The notes beneath the pieces were generated by a model. That model was given only the letters and a program-made list of their open reading frames with translations, did not search any database and had not been told where the DNA came from. Both the position numbers and the translations under genes were made by a program. 64,000 nt of DNA from an uncultured Candidatus Saccharibacteria bacterium (GTDB lineage Bacteria > Patescibacteriota > Minisyncoccia > Phycocordibacterales > WO2-35-19). Shown here in pieces: positions 8,912-63,094 of the stretch (positions are counted from its first letter, which is position 1; every line of letters starts with the position of its first letter). The stretch spans positions 110,098 through 174,097 of the forward strand of contig CAZPQX010000001.1 of NCBI GenBank assembly GCA_964589445.1, read 5' to 3'.

Positions 8912-8964
8912 ATATAAAGAGGAAAAATTTGAAAAAAAATGGTTTTCGTGTTAATTTTTTGCTC

Positions 8965-10032
8965 ATGCAATACAACGTAAAATCAAAAAAACTTCCTAAT
9001 TCGGAAGTTGAAATAGAGGTTAGTTTACCAGCTGAGGAGCTTGAAAAAGCCAGGAAAACAGCCATAAAAGAATTATCAGAAACCATGGAGATAGATGGCT
9101 TCAGGAAAGGCCATGTACCAGAAAATGTGGTACTCGAAAGAGCTGGAGAAGACCTTTTGCTCGAGAGAGCCGCTGATGTAGTACTCCAAAAACACTTCCA
9201 ATCAATAGTACTACAGGAGAAGTTTGATACCTTAGGTCACCCAGAAGTTTCTGTGACCAAACTTGCTCTTGGTAACCCTTTTGAATTTAAGGCAAAGTTT
9301 GCCGTGATGCCAGAGTTTGAGCTCCCCGACTACAAAAAAATAGCCAAGAAAATAAGAGAAGAAAACAAAAAAGAAGATAAGGAGTTTGAGGCAACCGAAA
9401 AAGAAGTTGATGATGTGCTTTTGCAAATAAGAAAGAACAAAGCTCACATCGAATGGCACAAAAACAACCCAGAAGCAGATCATCACGACCATGGAGATTT
9501 GGAAAATCCAGAGAGCCTCCCCGAGCTTACCGACGAGCTTGCAAAAGAAGCTGGTAATTTCAAAGATGTCGAGGAGCTTAAGGCAAAAATAAAAGAAAAT
9601 ATTATTTCAGAAAAAAAGCAGCGCGAAGCAGACAAGACAAGAGCTAAGATGATGGAGGCGATACTCAAAGACACTAAGATAGAGCTTCCAGAGGTACTTG
9701 TCGAAGCCGAGATAAACAAATCGATCGCACAGCTCAAAGACGATGTCGCAAGGATGGGCGGCAGTTGGGAAGATTATCTTTCACATACCAAAAAGACAGA
9801 GGATGACTTAAGGAAGGATATGCGCAACTCTTCTGCAGAAAGAGCCAAGATACAGCTCATATTCAACAAGATAGCTATAGCCGAAAAAATTGAACCGAAT
9901 GAGGAGATAATGGAGCAGGAAGTGAAGGTAATAAAAGAGCATTATAAAGATGCTTCAGAGCAAAGCGCTCGCATCTATGTGGCTACTATCCTCATCAATC
10001 AAGCAGTTTTGAAACTTTTGGAGAGCCAGTAG
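8965..10032 (+). CDS. tig: Trigger factor
   Basis: MQYNVKSKKLPNSEVEIEVSLPAEELEKARK... fits the trigger factor N-terminal domain, then PPIase-like and C-terminal domains; the ORF-table start at 8929 is probably a 12-codon over-extension. Confidence 0.8.
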   Translation: MQYNVKSKKLPNSEVEIEVSLPAEELEKARKTAIKELSETMEIDGFRKGHVPENVVLERAGEDLLLERAADVVLQKHFQSIVLQEKFDTLGHPEVSVTKLALGNPFEFKAKFAVMPEFELPDYKKIAKKIREENKKEDKEFEATEKEVDDVLLQIRKNKAHIEWHKNNPEADHHDHGDLENPESLPELTDELAKEAGNFKDVEELKAKIKENIISEKKQREADKTRAKMMEAILKDTKIELPEVLVEAEINKSIAQLKDDVARMGGSWEDYLSHTKKTEDDLRKDMRNSSAERAKIQLIFNKIAIAEKIEPNEEIMEQEVKVIKEHYKDASEQSARIYVATILINQAVLKLLESQ

Positions 10033-10050
10033 AAGAATTTAATCAAAAAA

Positions 10051-10124
10051 CCTGAAACAAAATTCTGACTCCTCCTCCCTAAAGGGTTCCCTTGGGAGTC
10101 AAAATTTTGCTTCAGGTTTTTTTT
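10051..10124 (+). repeat. Type-B palindromic element copy (22-bp arms around tcctccctaaagggttccc) plus T-run; acts as the tig terminator
   Basis: cctgaaacaaaattctgactcc ... ggagtcaaaattttgcttcagg tttttttt; the same element occurs twice in-frame inside fmt (56193-56240, 56411-56460). Confidence 0.55.
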
Positions 10125-10304
10125 GGAGCTTCTGGAGAGTGGATAGAACAGATAAGTAAAAAGTAAAAATAGAATAAAAAAGGTGAAAAGTTATTGAGCG
10201 TGCCTTGCGGAGGCTGACTGAGCCGAGCAGAGCAAAAAACCAGCAGGTTTTTATGCGTGCTAAGCGAAATAAGCTTTTCACCTTTTTTATTAGGACCAAA
10301 TAAA

Positions 10305-22298: not shown

Positions 22299-22352
22299 AG
22301 GTTAACAAATATCCCAAAAATAGTCAAATACGGACTTCCCACTTTGTTAAAA

Positions 22353-22449
22353 TTCGGCTAGATATTTTCTGAGGAAAGCCTTGAACCAAAGAAGTAGCGG
22401 GTACCACTCCCGGGTTAGGGGTGCTTTTCGAAGAATATATCTAGCCGGA
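22353..22449. promoter_or_regulatory. Long inverted repeat between the uvrB stop and the S14 start; candidate structured leader of the S14-S8-L6... operon or an atypical uvrB terminator
   Basis: arms ttcggctagatattttct (22353-22370) and cgaagaatatatctagccgga (22429-22449) around a 58-nt GC-richer core (gggtaccactcccgggttagggg). Confidence 0.3.
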
Positions 22450-22457
22450 TTAAAAAA

Positions 22458-24581
22458 CTACTTTGTGAGCATTTTTTCGAGTTCCTTGATCTCGTCGCGG
22501 AGGATAGAAGCCGTCTCAAAGTCGAGGATTTTGACTGAGGCATTCATTTGTTTCTCTTTAGTTTTTATGAGCTTCTGTATACTCTTGGCACTTGCGTTTT
22601 TGGTGTCTATCGCCAAAAGCTGCCCTACTGCCTGCCTGTGCTCCTTCTGAAGCTGGTCAGTGATGTCTTTGATCTCTTTCTTGATAGTCATCGGTGTGAT
22701 GCCGTGCTCTGTGTTGTAAGCCACTTGGAGGGCTCGCCTCCTGTTTGTCTCATTTATAGCACGCTCCATAGAGCCAGTGAGGTTATCTGCATAAAGCACC
22801 ACCTTACCTTCTACATTCCTAGCCGCCCTACCTATAATTTGGATGAGCGAAGTCTCGCTACGAAGGAAACCTTCTTTGTCAGCATCGAGGATACCGATAA
22901 ACTCAACCTCAGGAAGATCGAGCCCTTCTCTCAATAGGTTGACCCCCACGAGCACATCAAACTCACCTCTCCTAAACTTTGTAAGTATCTCGATCCTCTC
23001 TATCGTCTTGATATCACTGTGCAAATATTCTGCTTTTATTTTTCTTTCTTTCAAAAACTCTGACAAATCTTCTGCCATTTTTTTGGTCAAGGTAGTAGCG
23101 ATGGCTCTGTTGCCTTTTTTGATTGCTTTCTCAGCTTCGTTTATAAAATCAAATATTTGTCCCGGATACGCAGAAATCTTTTCGAGAGCAACTTTCGGAC
23201 CGCGACCGGCGGGAGAAGGAGGGGATTTTTCAGCAGAAAAATACCCCGGTTGATCGAGAGAAGATTTCTGGGTATCCGACTTCTTTGCAATAATCGGTCT
23301 GATGAAAATCTCTGGATCGATAAGACCAGTAGGCCTGATCACTTGCTCAACGATATTTTGCGAATGCTCAGCTTCATATTTACCAGGAGTAGCAGAAGTA
23401 TAAATAGTTTGACCCACTCTTTTTTCAAACTCATCAGCCTTGAGTGGCCTGTTGTCCTTGGCACTTGGAAGCCTGAAACCGTGCTCTACGAGAGTTTGCT
23501 TCCTCGCTTGGTCACCATTGAACATGGCACCAATCTGAGGCACAGCTACATGCGACTCATCTATGATAGTCAAAAAGTCCGGGGTACCATCTGCCTTGTG
23601 TGGAAAATAAGAAAGGAGAGTATGGGGTGCTTCGCCTTCTTTCCTTCCGTCAAAATGCCTGGAGTAATTTTCAATACCACTGCAATACCCCACCTCCTTT
23701 ATCATCGAAAGATCATAAGTAGTCCTCCTCTTTATCCTCTCTGCTTCAAGTATCTTACCTTCCTTTTCAAACTTCTTTAATTGTTTAGCGAGCTCTTCTT
23801 TTATGTCTTTGATTGCCCTCTTAGTTTCAGCTTCTGGAGTGATGAAATGCTTGGCAGGAAAGAGAAAGAAAGCCTGTTTTTCTTCTACCACCTGCATAGT
23901 GATAGCATCTATAATTTCTATCTTGGCTATCTCATCACCAACTATTTCAAGTCTGAATATTTTTTTCTCTGACACAGGCATGATCTCAACTACATTTCCA
24001 GTTGAGCGGAAAACTCCAGGCGAAAGGTCTGCATTTGTCCTTTCATAATGGATAGCCACGAGCTTCAAAAAGAAATCTTTCCTATCGAACTTGTCCCCCT
24101 TTTTTATTTTTAGATTTACTTTTTGATATTCCACCGGAGAGCCTAGACCATATATACAAGAAACAGAGGCTACAATAATCACATCTTTCCTTGTAAGCAA
24201 AGCTTCGGTCGATGCATGGCGGAGCCTTTCTATCTCTTCGTTTATCATCGCCTCCTTCTCAATATATGTATCAGTCACGGGCATATAAGCTTCTGGCTGA
24301 TAGAAGTCGTAGTAAGAAACAAAATAATGAACAGCATTTTCAGGGAAAAATTCACGATACTCCTGTGCGAGCTGAGCGGCTAGAGTTTTGTTGTGAGCAA
24401 TCACAAGAGTCGGCTTTTGGAATTGTTGTATCACATTTGCAGCAGTAAAAGTCTTACCGCTCCCAGTCACACCTAGGAGTGTTTGTTTGTCTAAACCTTT
24501 TTTTAAGCCTTCAACAAGACCTTTTATAGCTTTAGGCTGATCTCCTGCTGGCTCGAATTTTGAATGTATTTTAAATTCCAT
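22458..24581 (-). CDS. uvrB: Excinuclease ABC subunit B, carrying an in-frame insertion of about 40 aa
   Basis: Helicase motifs, UvrB interaction domain and C-terminal UVR coiled coil; extra segment DTQKSSLDQPGYFSAEKSPPSPAGRGPKVALEKISAYPGQ between ...IRP and TTLTK relative to canonical UvrB. Confidence 0.9.
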   Translation of the reverse strand: MEFKIHSKFEPAGDQPKAIKGLVEGLKKGLDKQTLLGVTGSGKTFTAANVIQQFQKPTLVIAHNKTLAAQLAQEYREFFPENAVHYFVSYYDFYQPEAYMPVTDTYIEKEAMINEEIERLRHASTEALLTRKDVIIVASVSCIYGLGSPVEYQKVNLKIKKGDKFDRKDFFLKLVAIHYERTNADLSPGVFRSTGNVVEIMPVSEKKIFRLEIVGDEIAKIEIIDAITMQVVEEKQAFFLFPAKHFITPEAETKRAIKDIKEELAKQLKKFEKEGKILEAERIKRRTTYDLSMIKEVGYCSGIENYSRHFDGRKEGEAPHTLLSYFPHKADGTPDFLTIIDESHVAVPQIGAMFNGDQARKQTLVEHGFRLPSAKDNRPLKADEFEKRVGQTIYTSATPGKYEAEHSQNIVEQVIRPTGLIDPEIFIRPIIAKKSDTQKSSLDQPGYFSAEKSPPSPAGRGPKVALEKISAYPGQIFDFINEAEKAIKKGNRAIATTLTKKMAEDLSEFLKERKIKAEYLHSDIKTIERIEILTKFRRGEFDVLVGVNLLREGLDLPEVEFIGILDADKEGFLRSETSLIQIIGRAARNVEGKVVLYADNLTGSMERAINETNRRRALQVAYNTEHGITPMTIKKEIKDITDQLQKEHRQAVGQLLAIDTKNASAKSIQKLIKTKEKQMNASVKILDFETASILRDEIKELEKMLTK
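23171..23270. repeat. MITE-like palindromic element (type A), about 100 bp with about 22-bp TIRs, inserted in-frame in uvrB
   Basis: TIR cagaaatcttttcgagagcaac / gttgatcgagagaagatttctg; core gggagaaggaggggatttttcagcagaaaaataccccgg; near-identical copy in tgt. Confidence 0.6.
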
Positions 24582-25905
24582 AATAATTTTTCAAAAACTC
24601 CTGCTTATACTCCACGAAATTATCTTCGATAATAGACTCCCTTATTTTGTCTGTCATATTAACAACAAAATGTAAATTGTGAATAGTGGCGAGTGTAGCC
24701 GCCAGCATTTCCTTCGCCCTAAAAAGATGAGCGAGTATACTTCTATTATAATGAGTACAAGTATAACATTTGCACGAGTCATCTACTGGCCTCAGGTCAC
24801 TTCTAAAACTACTATTTAAAATTGAAATCCTGCCATGGATGGTGTGTAGGGTGCCATTGCGCGCCATCCTTGTCGGAGCCACACAGTCAAAAGTGTCACA
24901 ACCATTTTCAACCCCAAGGAAAATATCGATAGGCTCACCCACCCCCAAAAGGTGCCGCGGCTTTTCTTCGGGCAAAATTTCATTTACCCACCTCACAGCA
25001 GTACTCATGTCTTCTTTTATAAAAGTGCCTCCGATGCCGAAGCCGTCAAAATCGAGAGCAGCGATTTGTTTTGCACTCATCTTGCGAAGTTCTTCGTGCC
25101 TGCCACCTTGGACGATACCAAAAAGTTGTTGCCCTCTGGGACTTTCATTCTGCTCAGCAGGAGAAAAAATGTTCTTGAGAGCAACTTTCGGACCGTGAAT
25201 GACGGGAGAAGGAGGATATTTTTCAGCAGAAAAATAATCCGGTTGCTCGAGAGAATATTTTTTCTCCTGATGATTTTTCTGTAATATTTTATGCTCAACC
25301 AAACACCTCTTGGCCCAACGCTCGGTGCGCTCGATAGTTGATTTTATTTTTTCAAAAGAAGCGTGAGGAGAAGTGAATTCGTCGAGTGCAAAGATGATAT
25401 CCGCACCTATCTTACTCTGTATTTGCATCGAGTCTTCAGGCGACATAAACCTAGGGCTACCGTCTATTACAGATTTGAAGTGAACACCATCTTCAGTGAC
25501 TTTGGCCATTGAGCCCTCTTTTTCCTCTTCAATACTTTCTACCACCTCTCTTTCTGGGGAATCAGCCGAGACAAACTTACCTATACCACTACCACTCGCG
25601 ACACCAAGCGAAAAAGCCTGGAAGCCACCAGAGTCTGTCATAGTAGGAAGTTGCCAATTCATCATGCCGTGCAGACCTCCATTTTTTTCCACCAAATCTT
25701 CGCCTGGCTGCAAATGCAAGTGATATGTGTTGGCGAGCACTACCTGAGCGCCCAAATCTCTGACTTGCTCTGAAGTTACAGCTTTAACTGTGGCCTTTGT
25801 ACCTACAGGCACAAAGGCGGGGGTCTTGATACGCCCATGTACTGTCGATATCAAACCCGCCCGCCCTAGTGAACCTTTTAGTCTTTTTTCTATTTTAAAA
25901 CCCAT
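24571..25905 (-). CDS. tgt: Queuine tRNA-ribosyltransferase, carrying an in-frame insertion of about 45 aa
   Basis: DSGGFQ, LGVGEPIDIFLGVENGCDTFDCVAPTR and zinc site CKCYTCTHY; extra segment KKYSLEQPDYFSAEKYPPSPVIHGPKVALKNIFSPAEQ before LFGIVQGG. Confidence 0.9.
   Translation of the reverse strand: MGFKIEKRLKGSLGRAGLISTVHGRIKTPAFVPVGTKATVKAVTSEQVRDLGAQVVLANTYHLHLQPGEDLVEKNGGLHGMMNWQLPTMTDSGGFQAFSLGVASGSGIGKFVSADSPEREVVESIEEEKEGSMAKVTEDGVHFKSVIDGSPRFMSPEDSMQIQSKIGADIIFALDEFTSPHASFEKIKSTIERTERWAKRCLVEHKILQKNHQEKKYSLEQPDYFSAEKYPPSPVIHGPKVALKNIFSPAEQNESPRGQQLFGIVQGGRHEELRKMSAKQIAALDFDGFGIGGTFIKEDMSTAVRWVNEILPEEKPRHLLGVGEPIDIFLGVENGCDTFDCVAPTRMARNGTLHTIHGRISILNSSFRSDLRPVDDSCKCYTCTHYNRSILAHLFRAKEMLAATLATIHNLHFVVNMTDKIRESIIEDNFVEYKQEFLKNYYGI
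25158..25269. repeat. MITE-like palindromic element (type A), about 112 bp with 24-bp TIRs, inserted in-frame in tgt
   Basis: TIR caggagaaaaaatgttcttgagag / ctcgagagaatattttttctcctg (22/24 complementary); core gacgggagaaggaggatatttttcagcagaaaaataatccgg. Confidence 0.6.
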
Positions 25906-26506: not shown

Positions 26507-27574
26507 ATGAAAGAACAAAATGCCAGTATCACGCTAAGTGAAATATCCGAGTCAGCAGAAAGAAGGGTCGCCCTCATATCGCAAGAATTTAAAGCTGGAT
26601 TTGAGTTCGTAAAAAACTACCCCAAGTCCGTCACCTTTTTTGGTTCAGCGAGGACCAAGACGGGAGATGAATATTATGAAAAGGCACGTGACCTCGCCAA
26701 GATGATAGTCGAAAAGCTCCACTACTCTGTAGTCACAGGTGGAGGCCCAGGCATAATGGAAGCAGCCAACAGAGGTGCCTATGAAGCAGGTGGCAACTCC
26801 ATCGGCCTCACCATAGAGCTACCACACGAACAAGTGACCAACCCCTACATCACAAGCCAGATGGGCTTTCATTATTTTTTTAGCCGAAAGGTCTGTCTTT
26901 CTTTTTCTGCTGAAGCTTACATATTTTTCCCTGGAGGCTTCGGCACACTCGACGAGTTCCTTGAGATTATGACCCTAGTACAAACCAAAAAAATACCCGC
27001 CGCACCAATCATACTTTTTGGTGAAAAATACTGGCAACCTCTTGATAAGTTTTTTAAAGGCTTCCTCAGAGACAAAGGTATGATAGACGAGCTCGATACT
27101 TCCCTTTACCTCATATCGGACGATGAGGCAGAAATATTGAAACTTATCGAAAAGGCACCAGTAAGATTTGGCATAAAATACAACGACTCTTCCGAAAAAT
27201 ATCTAGAACAAAATGGTAAAAATGCGACAGGCCCCCTAAGTCAACTTTCAGAAAAGCACTGCGTACCTTGCGAAGGTGGCATGCCTCCCCTTTCAAAAAC
27301 AGAGTCCGAGGTACTACTCAAAGAAGTAGATGAGTGGACCTTGATGGGAGAAAAAGAAATTCTAAAAACTTACAAATTCGAAGATTTCAAAGAAGCCATG
27401 CAGTTTGTAGTAAATGTAGGCAAAATAGCAGAAAAAGAAGGACACCACCCAGATATAAAAATATTTGATTACAAAAAAGTCGAGATACGCATCTCGACTC
27501 ATGCTATCGACGGCCTCTCCGAAAACGACTTTATCCTTGCATCAAAAATCGACGAGCTTCTGAGAGATAAGTAA
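26507..27574 (+). CDS. Fusion protein: LOG-family (TIGR00730) domain + pterin-4a-carbinolamine dehydratase (PCD/DCoH) domain
   Basis: N-terminus VTGGGPGIMEAANRGA and FFPGGFGTLDEFLE (LOG signatures); C-terminus ...EGHHPDIKIFDYKKVEIRISTHAIDGLSENDFILASKIDEL (PCD signature). Confidence 0.7.
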   Translation: MKEQNASITLSEISESAERRVALISQEFKAGFEFVKNYPKSVTFFGSARTKTGDEYYEKARDLAKMIVEKLHYSVVTGGGPGIMEAANRGAYEAGGNSIGLTIELPHEQVTNPYITSQMGFHYFFSRKVCLSFSAEAYIFFPGGFGTLDEFLEIMTLVQTKKIPAAPIILFGEKYWQPLDKFFKGFLRDKGMIDELDTSLYLISDDEAEILKLIEKAPVRFGIKYNDSSEKYLEQNGKNATGPLSQLSEKHCVPCEGGMPPLSKTESEVLLKEVDEWTLMGEKEILKTYKFEDFKEAMQFVVNVGKIAEKEGHHPDIKIFDYKKVEIRISTHAIDGLSENDFILASKIDELLRDK

Positions 27575-31671: not shown

Positions 31672-31850
31672 GGCCCTATCGTAAACGGTTAGTCGCCTCC
31701 TCGGCGACCCGCCGAGGAGGCGGGGACGGAGCCTTCTCAAGACTTAAAGAGGGGTTGAATTGCGAAAGCTTGGAGCAATTCAAAGCCGGACTGAGCGGAG
31801 GCGAAGGAGGCGGGGTCGTGGAAATTTTTAGCAAAAAATTATCTGTGACC
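31672..31850 (+). pseudogene. tRNA-Glu-like unit 1, disrupted by GC-rich hairpin insertions in the D-loop and T-loop regions (probably non-functional)
   Basis: Starts ggccctatcgtaaacggttag, then a 31-nt perfect hairpin (cgcctcctcggcg accc gccgaggaggcg), then ggacggagccttctcaagactt (CUC anticodon loop) and a disrupted T arm; no matching 3' acceptor strand. Confidence 0.3.
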
Positions 31851-31887
31851 GATTCCCAAATCGAACGTTGTGTAGTAAAAATATATG

Positions 31888-32050
31888 GCCCTATCGTCTA
31901 ACGGTTAGGACGGAGCCTTCGAGAGGTGAGGTTGGGATATGGGACCCAACCGCAAGACCTTTTGAGAATTTTTATGAGTAGAACGAAATAAAAAGCCCAA
32001 AAGGTGTACAGCGACTGTAAGTCGGAAAATTCGGGTTCGATACAATTAAA
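31888..32050 (+). pseudogene. tRNA-Glu-like unit 2: first 33 nt identical in register to the intact tRNA (through U33), then about 115 nt of unrelated GC-rich sequence and a T-arm remnant
   Basis: ggccctatcgtctaacggttaggacggagcctt | cgagaggtgaggttggg... ttcgggttcgatac; no 3' acceptor complement. Confidence 0.3.
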
Positions 32051-32054
32051 TAAT

Positions 32055-32126
32055 GGCCTCATCGTCTAACGGTTAGGACGGAGCCTTCTCAAGGCTTAAA
32101 TCGGGGTTCGATTCCCCGTGAGGTCA
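32055..32126 (+). tRNA. tRNA-Glu (anticodon CUC), 72 nt, CCA not encoded
   Basis: Cloverleaf by hand: acceptor ggcctca/tgaggtc (one G-U), D stem gtct/ggac, anticodon stem gagcc/ggctt with loop ttCTCaa, T arm cgggg-ttcgatt-ccccg. Confidence 0.75.
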
Positions 32127-32160
32127 CATTCAACAGCTAGCACGAGAAGCGTGCGAAATA

Positions 32161-49687: not shown

Positions 49688-50902
49688 TTAGATAAGTTTC
49701 AATATGTCACGGTATGTCACAAAAAGCATGAGCGCTATCAGGATGAAAAATCCTGCCACATTTGTATACTCTGCGAACTTTTTGTTTATGGGCCTCTTTG
49801 TGATTGCCTCGACAGCCACAAACACAAGCCTACCGCCATCGAGAGCTGGAAATGGCAGAAGATTTATAACCGCCAAGTTTATAGAAATAAGAGCAGTAAA
49901 TGTCACGAGATAAGAAAACCCGAGTTTGGACGCGTCTCCCACCAAACCAACAATACCCACAGGACCAGAAACCTGAGAAACATCAGCCTGCCCCATGAAC
50001 GCATCTTTTATGAGACTCAGAGTCCCAGAGACAGTGAGATAAGTGATAGTAAAAGTAGCTTTGACTCCTTGATATAGTGCCTTATGGATAGGAAGCTTTA
50101 AGGTGCCTACTGTGTCCATACTTATACCAATGGCTTTCTTGCCTTCAACCAAATTTGAATTTGGCTCTATTTCAAAATCAAAAATTTCGTTACCTCTCTC
50201 AACTTTCACACCCACCAAACCTTCTGAAGTATTTATGAGACCTGAGACTTGCTCTGTAGTCGGACTTTTGAAAGAAGAATTTTTGTCAGAAACTTCTATG
50301 ATTTTGTCGCCCGTCTTGAGACCAGAAAGACTAGCAGGAGAGTCTTCGAGCACGCTCACTACTGTAGTTACAGGATTTTCGACTTGGCCTCCAAAATCAT
50401 TTTCGAGTGGAGCTGGTACTCCAATAAGGAAACTTAAAGAAAAAAGCATCCAGGCAAAAATAATATTGAACGTGACACCTGCTGCAAGTATAGTCGCCTG
50501 CCACTTTTTTGAAACTTCTGTAAATCTAAAATTTTTCTGAACAAAATATTCAGAAGAGGCTAGCGAGCCTGACTGAGGCGAGCTCGAGGAAAAATTCAGC
50601 AGAATTTTATCCGTGCTCTTCTGGGTATTTTGTGAAGAAAAATTTTCATTCTTTCGACTCGCAGAAACAACTTCACTGTCTTCCTCATAATTTTCTCCCA
50701 AAATTTTGACGAACCCACCAAAAGGAATCCAGTTGATACTAAAAAGAGTGCCCCATCTTTTACCAAGAGAAATAGCTCTCGGCGGATATCCAAAACCAAA
50801 CTCCTCTACTGCGACACCCGCTTTTTTAGCAGCAAGAAAGTGCCCAAGTTCATGGACAAAAACCAAAACGCTTAAAATTAAGATGAAAATAATTACAGTC
50901 AT
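49688..50902 (-). CDS. rseP: Site-2 protease RseP (M50 zinc metalloprotease with PDZ domain)
   Basis: HELGHFLAAK (HExxH) in the first TM region, PDZ domain, C-terminal LDGG motif. Confidence 0.85.
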   Translation of the reverse strand: MTVIIFILILSVLVFVHELGHFLAAKKAGVAVEEFGFGYPPRAISLGKRWGTLFSINWIPFGGFVKILGENYEEDSEVVSASRKNENFSSQNTQKSTDKILLNFSSSSPQSGSLASSEYFVQKNFRFTEVSKKWQATILAAGVTFNIIFAWMLFSLSFLIGVPAPLENDFGGQVENPVTTVVSVLEDSPASLSGLKTGDKIIEVSDKNSSFKSPTTEQVSGLINTSEGLVGVKVERGNEIFDFEIEPNSNLVEGKKAIGISMDTVGTLKLPIHKALYQGVKATFTITYLTVSGTLSLIKDAFMGQADVSQVSGPVGIVGLVGDASKLGFSYLVTFTALISINLAVINLLPFPALDGGRLVFVAVEAITKRPINKKFAEYTNVAGFFILIALMLFVTYRDILKLI

Positions 50903-55701: not shown

Positions 55702-56832
55702 ATGATTCATGATTCAAAAAAAATAGCATTTTTCGGTAGCTCAGAATTCAGTGTTTATGTCCTAGATGAACTCCTTTTGCATGGTATAAAACCCTCACTC
55801 ATAGTCACTACACCAGACAAACCAAAAGGTAGGAAGCTAGTGCTCACCCCCAACCCCTGCAAAGTTTGGGCAATAGAAAATGATATTGAAGTTATCGCCC
55901 CTGCTTCTCTTAAAAAAGACAACGAATCCCTGATCCAAAACCTGAAAACTAAAAACTACGACCTATTTTTGGTCGCTTCTTATGGCAAAATAATCCCCAA
56001 AGAGATTTTTGAAATCCCTACAAAACAAACTTTGAACATCCACCCTTCTATGCTCCCGAAATACAGAGGTGCCTCCCCTATCCAATCACAAATTTTAAAT
56101 AATGAAAAAGAAATCGGCGTGAGCATCATGGTCATTAGTGAGGGTATGGATGAGGGGCCGGTGATAACTCAAAAAATTCTTCCGCATCATGCAAATTTTG
56201 ATCGTTCCTCCCTGAAGGGTTCCCACACGACTCAAAATTTCCACGATGCTTCAGAATTTCTGAAGCCGCAGGGTTTTGGGGGGCTTGCGAGCTTGACTGA
56301 AGCGAGCACGAGGAATTTTTTAGCAGAAAAATATCCGTGCCCCCAAAACTCTGTGGCGGAAGAAATTTCCTCGAATCAAAATTTTGATCGTTCTTCAGGC
56401 AAACCAAATGAAAATTTTGACTCCTCCTCCCTAAAGGGTTCCCACGGAGATCAAAATTTTCATTTGGTTTGCCTTGGGAGGATAGAGCTCGAAAGGGTAT
56501 TAGCTATTGAAGGCGCTCGCCTTTTCGCCCACATACTCCCAGAATGGATGCAAGGAGCTATTGACCCCATAATGCAAAACGAAGCAGAGGCGACTTACTG
56601 CAAAAAAATAGAAAAAGAAGATGGGCTTTTGGACTTAAACGACGACCCATACAAAAATTATTTAAAAATAAAAGCCCTTGAAGGCTGGCCTGGCACTTAC
56701 TTTTTCCTAGATGGTAAAAGAGTGATAATCAAAGAAGCCACATTTGAAAATGGTGAACTCGAAATATTAAAAGTCATCCCCGAAGGCAAAAAAGAAATGC
56801 CTTACTCTGACTTCCTCCGTGGACAAAAATAA
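55702..56832 (+). CDS. fmt: Methionyl-tRNA formyltransferase carrying an in-frame insertion of about 70 aa built from palindromic repeat elements
   Basis: N-terminal formyltransferase domain (IHPSMLPKYRGASPIQSQIL) and C-terminal domain intact; 376 aa vs about 310 typical; inserted region contains NFDRSSLKGSHTTQNFH / NFDSSSLKGSHGDQNFH repeats and RNFLAEKYP. Confidence 0.85.
   Translation: MIHDSKKIAFFGSSEFSVYVLDELLLHGIKPSLIVTTPDKPKGRKLVLTPNPCKVWAIENDIEVIAPASLKKDNESLIQNLKTKNYDLFLVASYGKIIPKEIFEIPTKQTLNIHPSMLPKYRGASPIQSQILNNEKEIGVSIMVISEGMDEGPVITQKILPHHANFDRSSLKGSHTTQNFHDASEFLKPQGFGGLASLTEASTRNFLAEKYPCPQNSVAEEISSNQNFDRSSGKPNENFDSSSLKGSHGDQNFHLVCLGRIELERVLAIEGARLFAHILPEWMQGAIDPIMQNEAEATYCKKIEKEDGLLDLNDDPYKNYLKIKALEGWPGTYFFLDGKRVIIKEATFENGELEILKVIPEGKKEMPYSDFLRGQK
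56193..56460. repeat. Cluster of repeat elements inside fmt: two type-B palindromic copies (56193-56240, 56411-56460), a half copy (56377-56400) and a type-A-related core (about 56305-56340)
   Basis: gaaaattttgactcctcctccctaaagggttcccacggagatcaaaattttc matches the intergenic copy at 10051-10124; aggaattttttagcagaaaaatatccg matches the uvrB/tgt element core. Confidence 0.5.
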
Positions 56833-62227: not shown

Positions 62228-62822
62228 GGATAGGTTTACACTCAAGGCTGGTATACTTATGTATATATGCCAGAGAAGAGAACCTATGCTGATCGTGCTG
62301 AATATTTGCGAGAAGCCGTCAAAAAAAGAAGGAAAAAACTTCGAGAAATGGCTCGCGAATATGGTGGAGGTAAGTGTGCAATATGTGGTTATAAAAAATC
62401 ACCAAGAGCACTAGCCTTTCATCATCTCAACCCACAAGAAAAAGATTTTGGACTTTCCGTTAAAGGATTGACCAGATCCTGGGAAAAGATGAGGAAAGAA
62501 ATAGATAAATGTATCTTGCTTTGCGCAAACTGCCACGCAGAAGTGCACGATGGTATTACGCAGCTTCCCGAGGTAACTCGGGTTGAAAAACGAGGTGAAT
62601 TCGGGGAAGCCCTTCGTGGGTAATCCCGAGCCAAGACCAGCACTAATTTTGGTTTTTAATTTTTATAAATCAAAATTAGTGCTGGTAAGGTGTAGAGACT
62701 ATCCGTAATTGGAGTACTTTTCGGACTAAAAGTCCGGATGGGAAGCGCCTCGCCACTTATATCTCACAGAGATTTTAAGTGGATGATATAGTCCATCCCT
62801 CTTAGAAATTTGAGGATAAATG
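62228..62822 (+). mobile_element. Group I intron (about 595 nt) within the tRNA anticodon loop
   Basis: Catalytic-core hallmarks near the 3' end: R-like tttcggactaaaagtccgg and S-like gatgatatagtcc (P7 pairing gacta/tagtc); intron ends with G before exon 2; encodes an HNH ORF. Confidence 0.6.
62267..62623 (+). CDS. HNH homing endonuclease encoded within the group I intron
   Basis: GGGKCAICGYKK...LAFHHLNPQEKDFG...LLCANCHAEVHDG (Cys pairs, HH and N...CANCH HNH motif). Confidence 0.75.
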   Translation: MPEKRTYADRAEYLREAVKKRRKKLREMAREYGGGKCAICGYKKSPRALAFHHLNPQEKDFGLSVKGLTRSWEKMRKEIDKCILLCANCHAEVHDGITQLPEVTRVEKRGEFGEALRG

Positions 62823-63002
62823 TAACTCGTTGGTCGTAGGTTCGAATCCTACCCGCGGAGCAACAAACACGAAGTCCTGATGCGTAGCATTAGGGCTTTT
62901 GTGTTTGTATCTGCCTGTAGGATTCGAACCGAAGGTGCCTGTTTTTAAGGAATAAGATGACTATAAAAACAGAGCATCTCGACCGGAAGAATGGAGGGAG
63001 AG

Positions 63003-63022
63003 GCGAATCCTACCCGCGGAGC
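63003..63022 (+). repeat. Direct repeat of the tRNA 3' end (T-loop half + acceptor + CCA), 160 bp downstream of the tRNA
   Basis: gaatcctacccgcggagcca vs tRNA 62843-62861 gaatcctacccgcggagca; an inverted partial copy (gtaggattcgaacc) lies at 62917-62930. Confidence 0.5.
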
Positions 63023-63094
63023 CATCAAAATGACCTTGTTCTGCAGGGTCATTTTGTTTGACCCAGATAGGGTTCAGAACCAATTTTTGTTATA

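What the first reader, a model, noticed from the sequence alone, without database searches (positions are those of the whole stretch)
56190..56465. fmt carries a composite in-frame insertion of about 70 aa built from three or four copies of two palindromic repeat families, one of which is also the tig terminator
Fmt is 376 aa, against about 310 aa typically. The extra region (HHANFDRSSLKGSHTTQNFH…RNFLAEKYP…NFDSSSLKGSHGDQNFH) is encoded by two type-B palindromes with arms aaaattttga(c/t)c.. around the loop tcctccct(a/g)aagggttccc, plus a type-A-like core (aggaattttttagcagaaaaatatccg). The same type-B palindrome occurs intergenically at 10051-10124, where its 22-bp arms and a T-run form the tig terminator. 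One repeat family therefore acts both as a transcription terminator and as an in-frame coding insertion.
Basis: seen in the sequence. Interest (0 to 1): 0.75.

Follow-up and report, generated by a model that had tools for sequence, protein, structure and literature searches.

The report
Hairpin repeats translated inside fmt gene
In an uncultivated Patescibacteria (CPR) bacterium, the essential enzyme gene fmt carries about 91 extra codons made of stacked hairpin-forming DNA repeats that stay in frame, much like the palindromic elements of Rickettsia, and one of these repeat families also sits just after stop codons, where a transcription terminator would be.

Summary
It holds about 298 nt (56177-56474) where an orthologue with no insertion has 25 nt. 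The segment is four abutting pieces: B hairpin, A element, solo B arm, B hairpin. The 19-nt B core occurs three times in the window (0.01 expected). The third copy starts 13 nt after the tig stop and ends in T8.

The host is a Paceibacteria-like CPR bacterium. Syntenic fmt genes from other assemblies run from empty to A only, A+B1, and A+B1+B2, all in frame.

B copies in about 35 CPR contigs share a conserved 21-nt apex. Their arms differ but stay complementary (26 of 28 stem pairs covary). All 12 independent in-ORF sites are sense-oriented, in nine protein families. Of 15 intergenic copies, 14 lie 20 nt or less after a co-oriented stop.

The inserted peptide is predicted disordered. It lies in a loop inside the N-terminal domain, not in the interdomain linker. 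Within the insert, synonymous divergence is half that of the flanking gene, so the constraint acts on the nucleic acid.

Best reading: RPE-like mobile hairpins new to CPR. Terminator activity and the mobilisation mechanism are inferred, not shown.

The parts
55702..56832 (+). fmt (methionyl-tRNA formyltransferase), 376 aa, intact ORF containing the composite insertion
   Evidence: ORF list. Pfam Formyl_trans_N and Formyl_trans_C. Foldseek top hits are Fmt structures 4iqf, 1fmt and 2fmt. Catalytic N112, H114 and D150 are invariant in 120 orthologues.
56177..56474 (+). Composite in-frame insertion of about 298 nt, where the empty orthologue L047 has 25 nt. Net gain is about 91 codons, roughly Fmt residues 160-258.
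   Evidence: DNA alignment of syntenic fmt genes. Loop-length census in 120 orthologues. pLDDT below 50 for residues 173-253. The whole segment folds at -137 kcal/mol, z -11.
56174..56259 (+). B element copy 1 (hairpin). Apical core at 56206-56226, TCCTCCCTGAAGGGTTCCCAC, encodes SSLKGSH.
   Evidence: model R1, 78.8 bits
56255..56367 (+). A-family element: 28-nt outer arms enclosing a GC hairpin and the AT hairpin GGAATTTTTTAGCAGAAAAATATCC, which encodes NFLAEKYP.
56372..56398 (+). Solo B-type arm or mini-palindrome (ATCAAAATTTTGAT), present only in this lineage.
56397..56474 (+). B element copy 2: 24-nt perfect arms, apical core at 56425-56445.
   Evidence: 94.6 bits
10045..10124 (+). Intergenic B element. 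It starts 13 nt after the tig stop, has a 28-nt stem and a T8 run at 10117-10124. Terminator-like position between the convergent genes tig and rsmE.
8929..10032 (+). tig (trigger factor), the gene upstream of the intergenic B copy.
   Evidence: Pfam Trigger_N and Trigger_C
10173..10291 (+). Intergenic A-family element, next to the B copy downstream of tig.
23163..23278 (-). A-family element in frame inside uvrB (707 aa); peptide ...QPGYFSAEKSPPSPAGRGPKVALEK...
25154..25273 (-). A-family element in frame inside tgt (444 aa).
50528..50646 (-). A-family element in frame inside a Peptidase_M50 (RseP-like) gene (404 aa).

Best explanation
The extra segment of fmt is a pile-up of non-autonomous, hairpin-forming repeat elements of two families, A and B. 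They inserted one after another into a single permissive loop of the enzyme and are read through by the ribosome, as happens with Rickettsia palindromic elements.

Each element has a conserved apical module and long arms. The B apex is the 21-nt TCCT-CCC-TAAA-GGG-TTCCCAC. The A centre is about 65 nt and forms two small hairpins. The arms differ from copy to copy but remain self-complementary.

In most B copies only one frame per strand is free of stop codons, so insertions in genes survive only in that frame. In the sense orientation they add the hydrophilic peptide NFD-x-SSLKGSH-xx-QNF. In Fmt the stack adds a predicted disordered stretch of about 91 residues between strand 154-159 and helix 260-283 of the N-terminal domain. 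The catalytic residues are untouched.

Between genes, the same B hairpin sits directly after stop codons in the sense orientation with a T-rich tail. There it most likely acts as an intrinsic-terminator-like or 3'-end-protecting hairpin.

Shown here: the repeat anatomy, the in-frame state, the presence/absence series among orthologues, the covariation of the arms, the orientation and position biases, and nucleotide-level constraint after insertion.

Inferred: mobility as such (no transposase or target-site duplication was identified), terminator activity, and translation of the insert.
For: Repeat anatomy and chance controls.

Host organism and orthologues: Patescibacteria/Paceibacteria-type Fmt homologues.

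Nested presence/absence series in syntenic def-fmt-hpf loci from independent assemblies, with all length differences in multiples of three:
- L047: empty site.
- L046: A only.
- L045: A, B1 and a remnant of the B2 3' arm.
- L044: A, B1 and B2.
- window: the same plus a solo arm.

B copies in other CPR contigs. On 39 copies, 88.8% of stem cells pair against 63.9% after shuffling and at most 56% with slid partners. 26 of 28 stem pairs change on both sides.

In-frame hosts by Pfam: SpoU methylase, Mur ligase, RNase R, TruB, RluA-type synthase, SMC, DNA polymerase A, PMT_2 and Fmt.

Frames and orientation: 23 of 39 copies have exactly two stop-free frames, one per strand. Yet every one of the 27 copies classed as in-ORF lies in the sense orientation of its ORF; 25 of these were carried forward, representing 12 independent sites. 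14 of 15 informative intergenic copies lie 20 nt or less downstream of a co-oriented stop.

Permissive loop: its length ranges from 12 to 106 residues in 120 orthologues. The AlphaFold model has pLDDT above 90 for the fold and below 50 for residues 173-253. Sequence alignment to 4iqf places the insert between its residues 155 and 172.

Constraint after insertion, window against L044:
- Insert: pS 0.31, pN 0.125.
- Rest of fmt: pS 0.62, pN 0.068.
- Windows flanking the insert: pS 0.75 and 0.80.
- Fisher test on synonymous differences: p = 3e-5.

The same trend holds in the arms of orthologous copies in RluA, RNase R, SMC and SpoU genes. Orthologous B1 arms differ by compensated double substitutions that change the peptide.

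Intergenic copies have T-richer 3' ends than in-ORF copies (7.7 against 5.4 T in 16 positions, p = 0.009), while hairpin stability is the same.
Against: - No transposase, target-site duplication or clean empty/filled pair at nucleotide resolution was found. The orthologues are too diverged for that.
- Unlike classical MITEs, the termini are the least conserved part and the apex the most conserved. A transposase that binds terminal inverted repeats therefore does not fit.
- Long-term conservation of orthologous in-ORF copies is not expected for purely selfish, decaying insertions.
- The consensus terminator scan finds no terminator at the tig copy, and several in-ORF copies also carry T4-T5 runs. 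Termination is therefore unproven.
- No expression or proteomic data are available. Translation of the insert rests on frame conservation alone.
- Loci found through the exact core are biased towards intact cores. The fmt orthologues L044-L047 were found through protein homology and do not carry this bias.
Confidence: 0.75

Rival explanations
1. The hairpins are host-functional RNA or DNA modules rather than tolerated selfish DNA. On this view the conserved 21-nt apex is a binding site for a protein or RNA. In-ORF copies are kept because they regulate the host gene, for example through translation-dependent intragenic attenuation, RNase III cleavage or ribosome pausing.
For: - Synonymous divergence in the fmt insert is half that of the flanking codons, and the drop is sharply bounded.
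- The arms of orthologous copies in four other genes show the same pattern, with pN roughly equal to pS.
- In-ORF hairpins are as stable as intergenic ones.
- Sense orientation is strict even though an open frame exists on the other strand.
- The apex is nearly invariant across different CPR classes, and a variant extends the apical mini-stem while keeping its flanks.
Against: - Fmt orthologues without any insert are the majority, so the element is dispensable for Fmt.
- G-U pairs are not enriched on the sense strand (14 G.T against 42 A.C mismatches), which speaks against selection on the sense RNA alone.
- Conservation could instead come from ectopic gene conversion towards a family consensus.
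- No Rfam family matches.
- There are no expression data.
Confidence: 0.2
2. The insertion is a lineage-specific protein adaptation of Fmt, a new functional peptide segment or domain selected at the protein level.
For: The frame has been kept open over considerable divergence. pN/pS in the insert is below 1, at about 0.4.
Against: - The same DNA occurs in at least nine unrelated protein families and between genes.
- The peptide is predicted disordered.
- pN in the insert is twice that of the rest of Fmt, while pS is half.
- Compensatory arm changes alter the peptide.
- Other orthologues carry unrelated inserts, or the same elements reversed, at this loop.
Confidence: 0.03
3. The segment is an assembly or sequencing artefact, or fmt is a pseudogene.
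For: Long perfect palindromes can confuse assemblers. The window comes from a metagenome-assembled genome (a single NCBI record).
Against: - Three independent assemblies from other samples (ENA and NCBI) carry diverged but collinear versions with intact frames and indels in multiples of three.
- The core of fmt is under strong purifying selection, with pN/pS about 0.11.
- Catalytic residues are invariant.
Confidence: 0.01

Closest known systems
Rickettsia palindromic elements (RPE; Ogata et al. 2000 Science; reviewed in PMC2229807 and PMC10969869)
   Same: - Dispersed repeats of about 100-150 bp that fold into long stem-loops.
- Several families in one small genome.
- Copies both between genes and fused in frame into conserved housekeeping genes without breaking them.
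- The inserted peptides lie outside the folded core.
   Different: - A different phylum (Patescibacteria), with no sequence relationship shown.
- Here the apex is the conserved part and the termini are hypervariable but co-varying.
- B copies are strictly sense-oriented, and intergenic copies sit in terminator position.
- Up to three and a half elements are stacked in one loop.
- Orthologous in-ORF copies show reduced synonymous divergence.
SPRITE, BOX and RUP repeats of Streptococcus pneumoniae (PMC10969869, citing Croucher et al. 2011)
   Same: SPRITE is a dispersed repeat that resembles a Rho-independent terminator. Pneumococcal repeats cluster and insert into one another, like the B-A-B stack here.
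   Different: The pneumococcal repeats are essentially intergenic and are not described as widespread in-frame coding insertions. Their sequences are unrelated.
REP/BIME elements mobilised by RAYT transposases (PMC3733652)
   Same: Hairpins located after genes, proposed to act in termination, attenuation and mRNA stabilisation. Structure matters more than the sequence of the stem.
   Different: REPs are 20-40 nt, GC-rich, extragenic and tagged by a GTAG or CGTC head. The B and A elements are 75-115 nt, AT-rich in the arms, lack that tag and occur inside ORFs.
Correia/NEMIS and ERIC MITEs (PMC2229807)
   Same: Long stem-loop transcripts. Some forms carry open frames that are fused to host ORFs.
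   Different: Those elements have conserved terminal inverted repeats and TA target duplications. Here the termini are variable and no duplication could be identified.
Coding palindromes and hairpin elements of mitochondrial genes (Nematomorpha, PMC6649704; sponge RHE, PMC2800124)
   Same: Long inverted repeats embedded in frame in essential protein genes, with both arms translated.
   Different: Organellar genomes and different sequence families. No terminator-position copies are described.

Membership tests
RPE-type in-frame palindromic repeats (as a kind) | A repeated element of about 100 nt that folds into a long stem-loop | tested here: met
   B hairpins fold at -26 to -47 kcal/mol with z -5.4 to -9.2, and the A hairpins at z -5.3 to -6.7. 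44 B copies were found with model R1 in 296 kb.
RPE-type in-frame palindromic repeats (as a kind) | Copies both intergenic and fused in frame into conserved protein genes that stay open | tested here: met
   Fmt, UvrB, Tgt and an M50 protease in the window. Nine host families for B in other contigs. 17 intergenic copies analysed, 15 of them informative for flanking-gene orientation.
RPE-type in-frame palindromic repeats (as a kind) | The insert lies outside the folded core and is compatible with the host fold | tested here: met
   The AlphaFold model has pLDDT above 90 for the fold and below 50 for residues 173-253. The same loop ranges from 12 to 106 residues among 120 orthologues.
Rickettsia RPE families proper (RPE-1 to RPE-10) | Sequence homology to a Rickettsia RPE consensus and occurrence in Rickettsiales | not tested
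   No RPE consensus sequences were available in the tools. The host is a Patescibacteria by Fmt homologues, so membership in the named families is not claimed.
Classical MITE | Conserved terminal inverted repeats recognised by a transposase | tested here: not met
   The outer arm columns are the most variable part, with four or more pair types per position, and the apex is invariant.
Classical MITE | Target-site duplication flanking the element | tested here: inconclusive
   The orthologous empty and filled fmt sites are too diverged to read exact junctions.
Classical MITE | A related autonomous insertion sequence or transposase in the genome | not tested
   Only a XerC/D-type recombinase was seen among the ten window proteins scanned. 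The window ORFs were not all scanned.
REP/BIME | A 20-40 nt GC-rich palindrome with a GTAG or CGTC head, extragenic | tested here: not met
   The elements are 75-115 nt with AT-rich arms, have no such head, and many lie inside ORFs.
Intrinsic (Rho-independent) terminator | A stable hairpin directly downstream of a stop codon, in sense orientation | tested here: met
   The tig copy starts 13 nt after the stop. 14 of 15 informative intergenic copies lie 20 nt or less after a co-oriented ORF.
Intrinsic (Rho-independent) terminator | A short GC-rich stem with a small loop, followed by a U-tract | tested here: inconclusive
   The tig copy has T8, and intergenic copies have T-richer tails (p = 0.009). 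However, the stem is 28 bp and AT-rich, the loop is 21-22 nt, and the consensus scan finds nothing.
Intrinsic (Rho-independent) terminator | Transcripts end at the element | not testable with these tools
   No RNA data are available.
Rfam RNA families | A match at or above a family's gathering score | tested here: not met
   Only sub-threshold generic miRNA-hairpin matches were found.

The most novel reading that the evidence does not exclude
The B hairpin may be more than tolerated junk. It could be a host-maintained nucleic-acid module with a conserved 21-nt apical motif containing an anti-Shine-Dalgarno-like UCCUCC, recognised by a factor. Paceibacteria would then use it as a portable 3'-end or termination signal. 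Copies inside ORFs would persist under purifying selection as conditional, translation-dependent attenuators or processing sites within essential genes. This would explain three observations: the strict sense orientation, the halved synonymous divergence, and the compensatory evolution that overrides the encoded peptide.
Probability: 0.2. Interest if true: 0.85.

Novelty: new variant of a known kind. Interest (0 to 1): 0.62.

Why it matters
In-frame palindromic repeats have been treated as a peculiarity of Rickettsia and a few other lineages. No report for Patescibacteria/CPR turned up in the held literature.

Here they appear in at least nine housekeeping protein families across several CPR groups. 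That has practical consequences:
- It explains part of the unusual protein lengths and 'insertions' seen in these reduced genomes.
- Annotation and structure prediction should mask such segments.
- The elements could serve as markers of lineage history.

The anatomy is the reverse of a MITE: the apex is conserved and the arms co-vary freely. Together with the strict link to transcription direction, this points to a mobilisation or selection mechanism that is not yet described. The nucleotide-level constraint inside coding sequence makes a testable case that a mobile terminator-like hairpin can remain functional, or at least be actively maintained, while being translated.

Tried and rejected
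- **Rfam.** A gathering-threshold search of the whole window and permissive searches of both loci gave only sub-threshold generic hairpin (miRNA) matches.
- **Simple terminator scan at tig.** No hit, because its loop limit is 3-8 nt.
- **Source contig of the window's Fmt.** The exact-sequence look-up found nothing on record.
- **Census of in-frame B peptides in the protein databases.** The 41-aa profile found nothing. A phmmer search of 1.84 billion representatives with the 31-aa B2 peptide returned one unrelated repetitive protein, P0121.
- **Replication-strand explanation for B orientation.** Rejected. The B-bearing strand has positive GC skew in most loci but negative skew in the window and its close relatives, while the orientation always follows the host gene.
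- **Selection on the sense RNA alone.** Not supported. G.T wobble pairs (14) are rarer than A.C mismatches (42). These counts are partly non-independent, because subfamilies share mismatches.
- **Target-site duplications.** Not readable from the diverged orthologues.
- **A candidate A core at 26902.** Rejected. It lies in the conserved PGGxGT region of a LOG-like protein and has no palindrome.
- **Non-CPR hits to the 19-mer** (Acidimicrobiales, Prosthecobacter, Brevifollis, Aquifex, Synechococcus; L001, L005, L007, L009, L011, L012; also L027). These have no hairpin arms and match the roughly 9 chance hits expected for that scan.
- **Intein or intron reading.** No splice or intein motifs were seen, and frame conservation across lineages argues that the segment is read through.
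Full report
**1. The observation**

The ORF at 55702-56832 (+) is open and encodes 376 aa. Pfam finds Formyl_trans_N at residues 6-171 and Formyl_trans_C at 302-350, leaving about 130 residues unmatched between them.

The 19-mer TCCTCCCTRAAGGGTTCCC occurs exactly three times in the 64-kb window, at 10073, 56206 and 56425. Shuffles give 0.01 expected matches.

Repeat finding and folding show that each occurrence is the apex of a long hairpin:
- 56174-56259: -26.4 kcal/mol.
- 56397-56474: 24-nt perfect arms, -46.5 kcal/mol.
- 10045-10122: -34.9 kcal/mol.

Between the two fmt copies lies a third hairpin at 56255-56367 (-57.5 kcal/mol). A 27-nt solo arm follows at 56372-56398. The whole 321-nt segment folds at -137 kcal/mol, z = -11.

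Its centre of about 65 nt comprises a GC hairpin and the AT hairpin ATTTTT(C/T)AGCAGAAAAAT. That centre aligns with copies at 50528-50646 and 10173-10291, and more distantly with 23163-23278 and 25154-25273.

The intergenic B copy starts 13 nt after the stop codon of a gene that Pfam confirms as trigger factor. It carries a T8 run at 10117-10124, and the next gene (rsmE) is convergent.

**2. Host organism and what the insert replaces**

The closest Fmt homologues come from Patescibacteria/Paceibacteria-type metagenomic bins, with Zambryskibacteria among the named ones. In an alignment of 120 orthologues, the loop between the conserved GP and the conserved R of LGRxELE is 14-15 residues in most sequences and 106 residues here.

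Four syntenic def-fmt-hpf loci from other assemblies form a nested series at the DNA level:
- L047: 25 nt at the site.
- L046: the A element only.
- L045: A, B1 and only the 3' arm of B2.
- L044: A, B1 and B2.
- window: the same plus the solo arm.

All length differences are multiples of three and every frame is open. This rules out a sequencing artefact or a pseudogene. It also shows gain or loss of individual elements among close relatives.

**3. Where the insert lies in the protein**

The AlphaFold model, built on the 120-sequence alignment, has mean pLDDT 80.8. 260 residues score above 90, and residues 173-253 form one continuous low-confidence stretch. That stretch lies between strand 154-159 and helix 260-283. 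Foldseek returns bacterial Fmt structures as the top hits.

Sequence alignment to the Bacillus anthracis Fmt structure 4iqf pairs query 7-158 with residues 6-155 and query 267-341 with residues 172-246. The insert therefore sits in a loop within the N-terminal catalytic domain, before its last helix, and not in the interdomain linker. N112, H114 and D150 are invariant in the alignment.

**4. The B family outside the window**

Exact-core scans of species-representative genomes and of JGI metagenomes returned 43 loci. Hits in non-CPR organisms have no flanking arms and match the roughly nine chance hits expected.

In every CPR hit the core is the apex of a hairpin with about 28 paired positions. 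The 5' arm is A-rich and the 3' arm is T-rich, usually with a one-base bulge in the 3' arm.

On 39 distinct copies:
- 88.8% of stem cells pair, against 63.9% after shuffling and at most 56% with slid partners.
- 26 of 28 stem pairs show changes on both sides.
- The 18 apical columns are invariant, partly because the loci were found through the core.

A covariance model searched over 296 kb found 44 copies. Only four had variant apices. One of these extends the CCC/GGG mini-stem to nine pairs while keeping its flanks. The architecture is thus the reverse of a MITE: conserved apex, hypervariable but complementary ends.

**5. Genomic context of B copies**

Every one of the 27 copies classed as in-ORF is in the sense orientation of its ORF, and 25 of these were carried forward. 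They represent 12 independent sites in Fmt (two sites), RNase R (two), SMC (two), an RluA-type synthase, TruB, SpoU methylase, Mur ligase, DNA polymerase A and a PMT_2 membrane protein. All but the PMT_2 copy use the frame that gives NFD-x-SSLKGSH-xx-QNF.

In 23 of 39 copies exactly two frames are stop-free, one on each strand. Frame filtering alone would therefore predict both orientations. The reverse peptide (NENFDLRGNPSGRSSQNFH) does occur, in one Fmt orthologue (P0007) at the same loop.

Of 15 informative intergenic copies, 14 lie 20 nt or less downstream of the stop of a co-oriented ORF. Orientation follows the host gene and not strand composition: the B-bearing strand has positive GC skew in most loci but negative skew in the window.

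In-ORF and intergenic hairpins are equally stable (means -35 and -37 kcal/mol). Intergenic copies have T-richer 3' ends (7.7 against 5.4 T in 16 positions, p = 0.009).

**6. Evolution after insertion**

Nei-Gojobori proportions for the window against L044:

| Region | pN | pS |
|---|---|---|
| 274 core codons of fmt | 0.068 | 0.617 |
| 95 aligned insert codons | 0.125 | 0.306 |

The drop in pS is confined to the insert. The adjacent 40-codon windows have pS of 0.75 and 0.80. A Fisher test on synonymous differences gives p = 3e-5. L045 gives the same picture. These fmt loci were found through protein homology, so they carry no bias from the core search.

Orthologous B1 arms differ by compensated double substitutions. 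One example is AAATTTTGA/TCAAAATTT against AAACTTTGA/TCAAAGTTT. Another is GCATCAT.../...ATGATGC against GAATCAG.../...CTGATTC. These changes alter the peptide (LPHHANFDR, LPHHKNFDR, LKNQQNFDH).

In RluA, RNase R, SMC and SpoU orthologues the arms show pS of 0.17-0.67 against host pS of 0.52-0.90, and pN of 0.12-0.40 against host pN of 0.10-0.18. In the arms pN is roughly equal to pS, and both fall below the neutral level of the host gene. The constraint is therefore on the nucleic acid and not on the peptide.

Stem mismatches are not enriched for G.U on the sense strand (14 G.T, 42 A.C and 39 transversions against 995 Watson-Crick pairs). Pairing is thus of the Watson-Crick, DNA-like kind. 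That would also result if one arm were corrected against the other by template switching. Shared ancestry of subfamilies limits how far this count can be pushed.

**7. Interpretation**

The best-supported account is that A and B are non-autonomous hairpin repeats of the same general kind as Rickettsia palindromic elements (PMC2229807, PMC10969869). They land in many places, and in genes they persist only in an open frame and in loops that tolerate extra residues.

The Fmt loop is such a site. Besides A and B in the sense orientation, orthologues hold several other inserts there:
- B reversed (P0007).
- A reversed (P0104 and P0107: CTDIFLLENSSCSLQSSSQ, the antisense reading of the A centre; compare the minus-strand ORF).
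- A family with peptide PSPxQGEG...GGEV.
- A family with peptide ISNFQF.

Between genes, the position, orientation and T-rich tail of the B hairpin make a role as terminator or 3'-end-protecting hairpin the most likely one. The pneumococcal SPRITE repeat is the nearest described analogue (PMC10969869).

Three things remain inferred: how the elements move, whether transcripts end at them, and whether the fmt insert is translated. No transposase or target duplication was identified. Termini that vary freely argue against a transposase that binds terminal repeats.

The strict sense orientation and the conservation of orthologous in-ORF copies are not explained by simple selfish decay. Either the host selects on the hairpin, or copies are homogenised towards a conserved family consensus by ectopic conversion.

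**8. Comparison with the literature and verdict**

Searches of the held literature found RPEs, MITE reviews and mitochondrial coding palindromes, but nothing on such elements in CPR/Patescibacteria. Rfam has no matching family.

I file this as a new variant of a known kind. It works like RPE-type in-frame palindromes. Membership in the named Rickettsia families is not claimed, and the defining MITE feature of conserved termini is not met.

Its interpretation is largely right, with three corrections: insert size, position in the fold, and the unproven status of terminator activity.

Noticed in passing
window 23163-23278 (uvrB), 25154-25273 (tgt), 50528-50646 (Peptidase_M50 gene), 10173-10291 (intergenic): Four further A-family elements. 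Three are in frame inside housekeeping genes on the minus strand. All five A copies in the window, including the one in fmt, have the same orientation on the + strand whatever the gene strand, unlike B, which follows the gene. The AT-hairpin core encodes FSAEK in either orientation.
   Followed up: partly
window 22351-22451: Another long hairpin (29-nt arms, 43-nt centre) begins 7 nt downstream of the uvrB stop codon. Its sequence is unrelated to A and B, so it may be a further terminator-position repeat family.
   Followed up: no
window about 62450-62860, and 62839-63033: An Rfam group I intron hit at 62535-62815 (64.5 bits). It is preceded by an HNH-like coding stretch (…CANCHAEVHDG…) and followed by a tRNA 3'-half-like sequence (GGTTCGAATCCTACCCGCGGAGCA), which is repeated at 63004-63025 and occurs inverted at about 62910-62930. 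This looks like a tRNA gene interrupted by an intron carrying an endonuclease. ARAGORN does not call it.
   Followed up: partly
window 31724-32127: tRNA-like direct repeats (31885-31920 against 32053-32088, 94% identical), but only one tRNA (Glu-CUC, 32055-32127) is called by ARAGORN and Rfam. There may be degenerate or intron-containing tRNA copies upstream.
   Followed up: no
Fmt orthologues P0024, P0057, P0093, P0099 and others; RNase R in L008:521-2644(-): A third in-frame family, with peptide (F/L)PSP(D/E)QGEGGRRPGGV, is consistent with a GC-rich CCCTCTCC...GGAGAGGG-type palindrome. It occupies the same Fmt loop in other lineages and also occurs in RNase R. A second Fmt site holds TPK(Q/R)SEGG... 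in P0004, P0024 and P0099.
   Followed up: no
L030:468-560(-): A chimeric B copy. Its 5' arm and 3' arm do not pair (-11 kcal/mol). The 3' arm closely resembles that of the window's tig copy, which suggests recombination between two copies.
   Followed up: no
L021:4730-4822(-) and L021:5222-5314(-): Two B copies with identical arms lie 492 nt apart inside one RNase R gene. This indicates recent duplication or transposition of a whole element, outer arms included.
   Followed up: partly
window fmt codons 341-376 (56722-56829): Synonymous divergence against L044 is also low in the last 36 codons of fmt (pS 0.28, against about 0.6-0.8 elsewhere). This hints at an overlapping nucleotide-level constraint at the 3' end of the gene.
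   Followed up: no
window 8929-10032: The trigger factor is only 367 aa. It matches Trigger_N and Trigger_C but shows no PPIase (FKBP) domain at E <= 1e-5.
   Followed up: no
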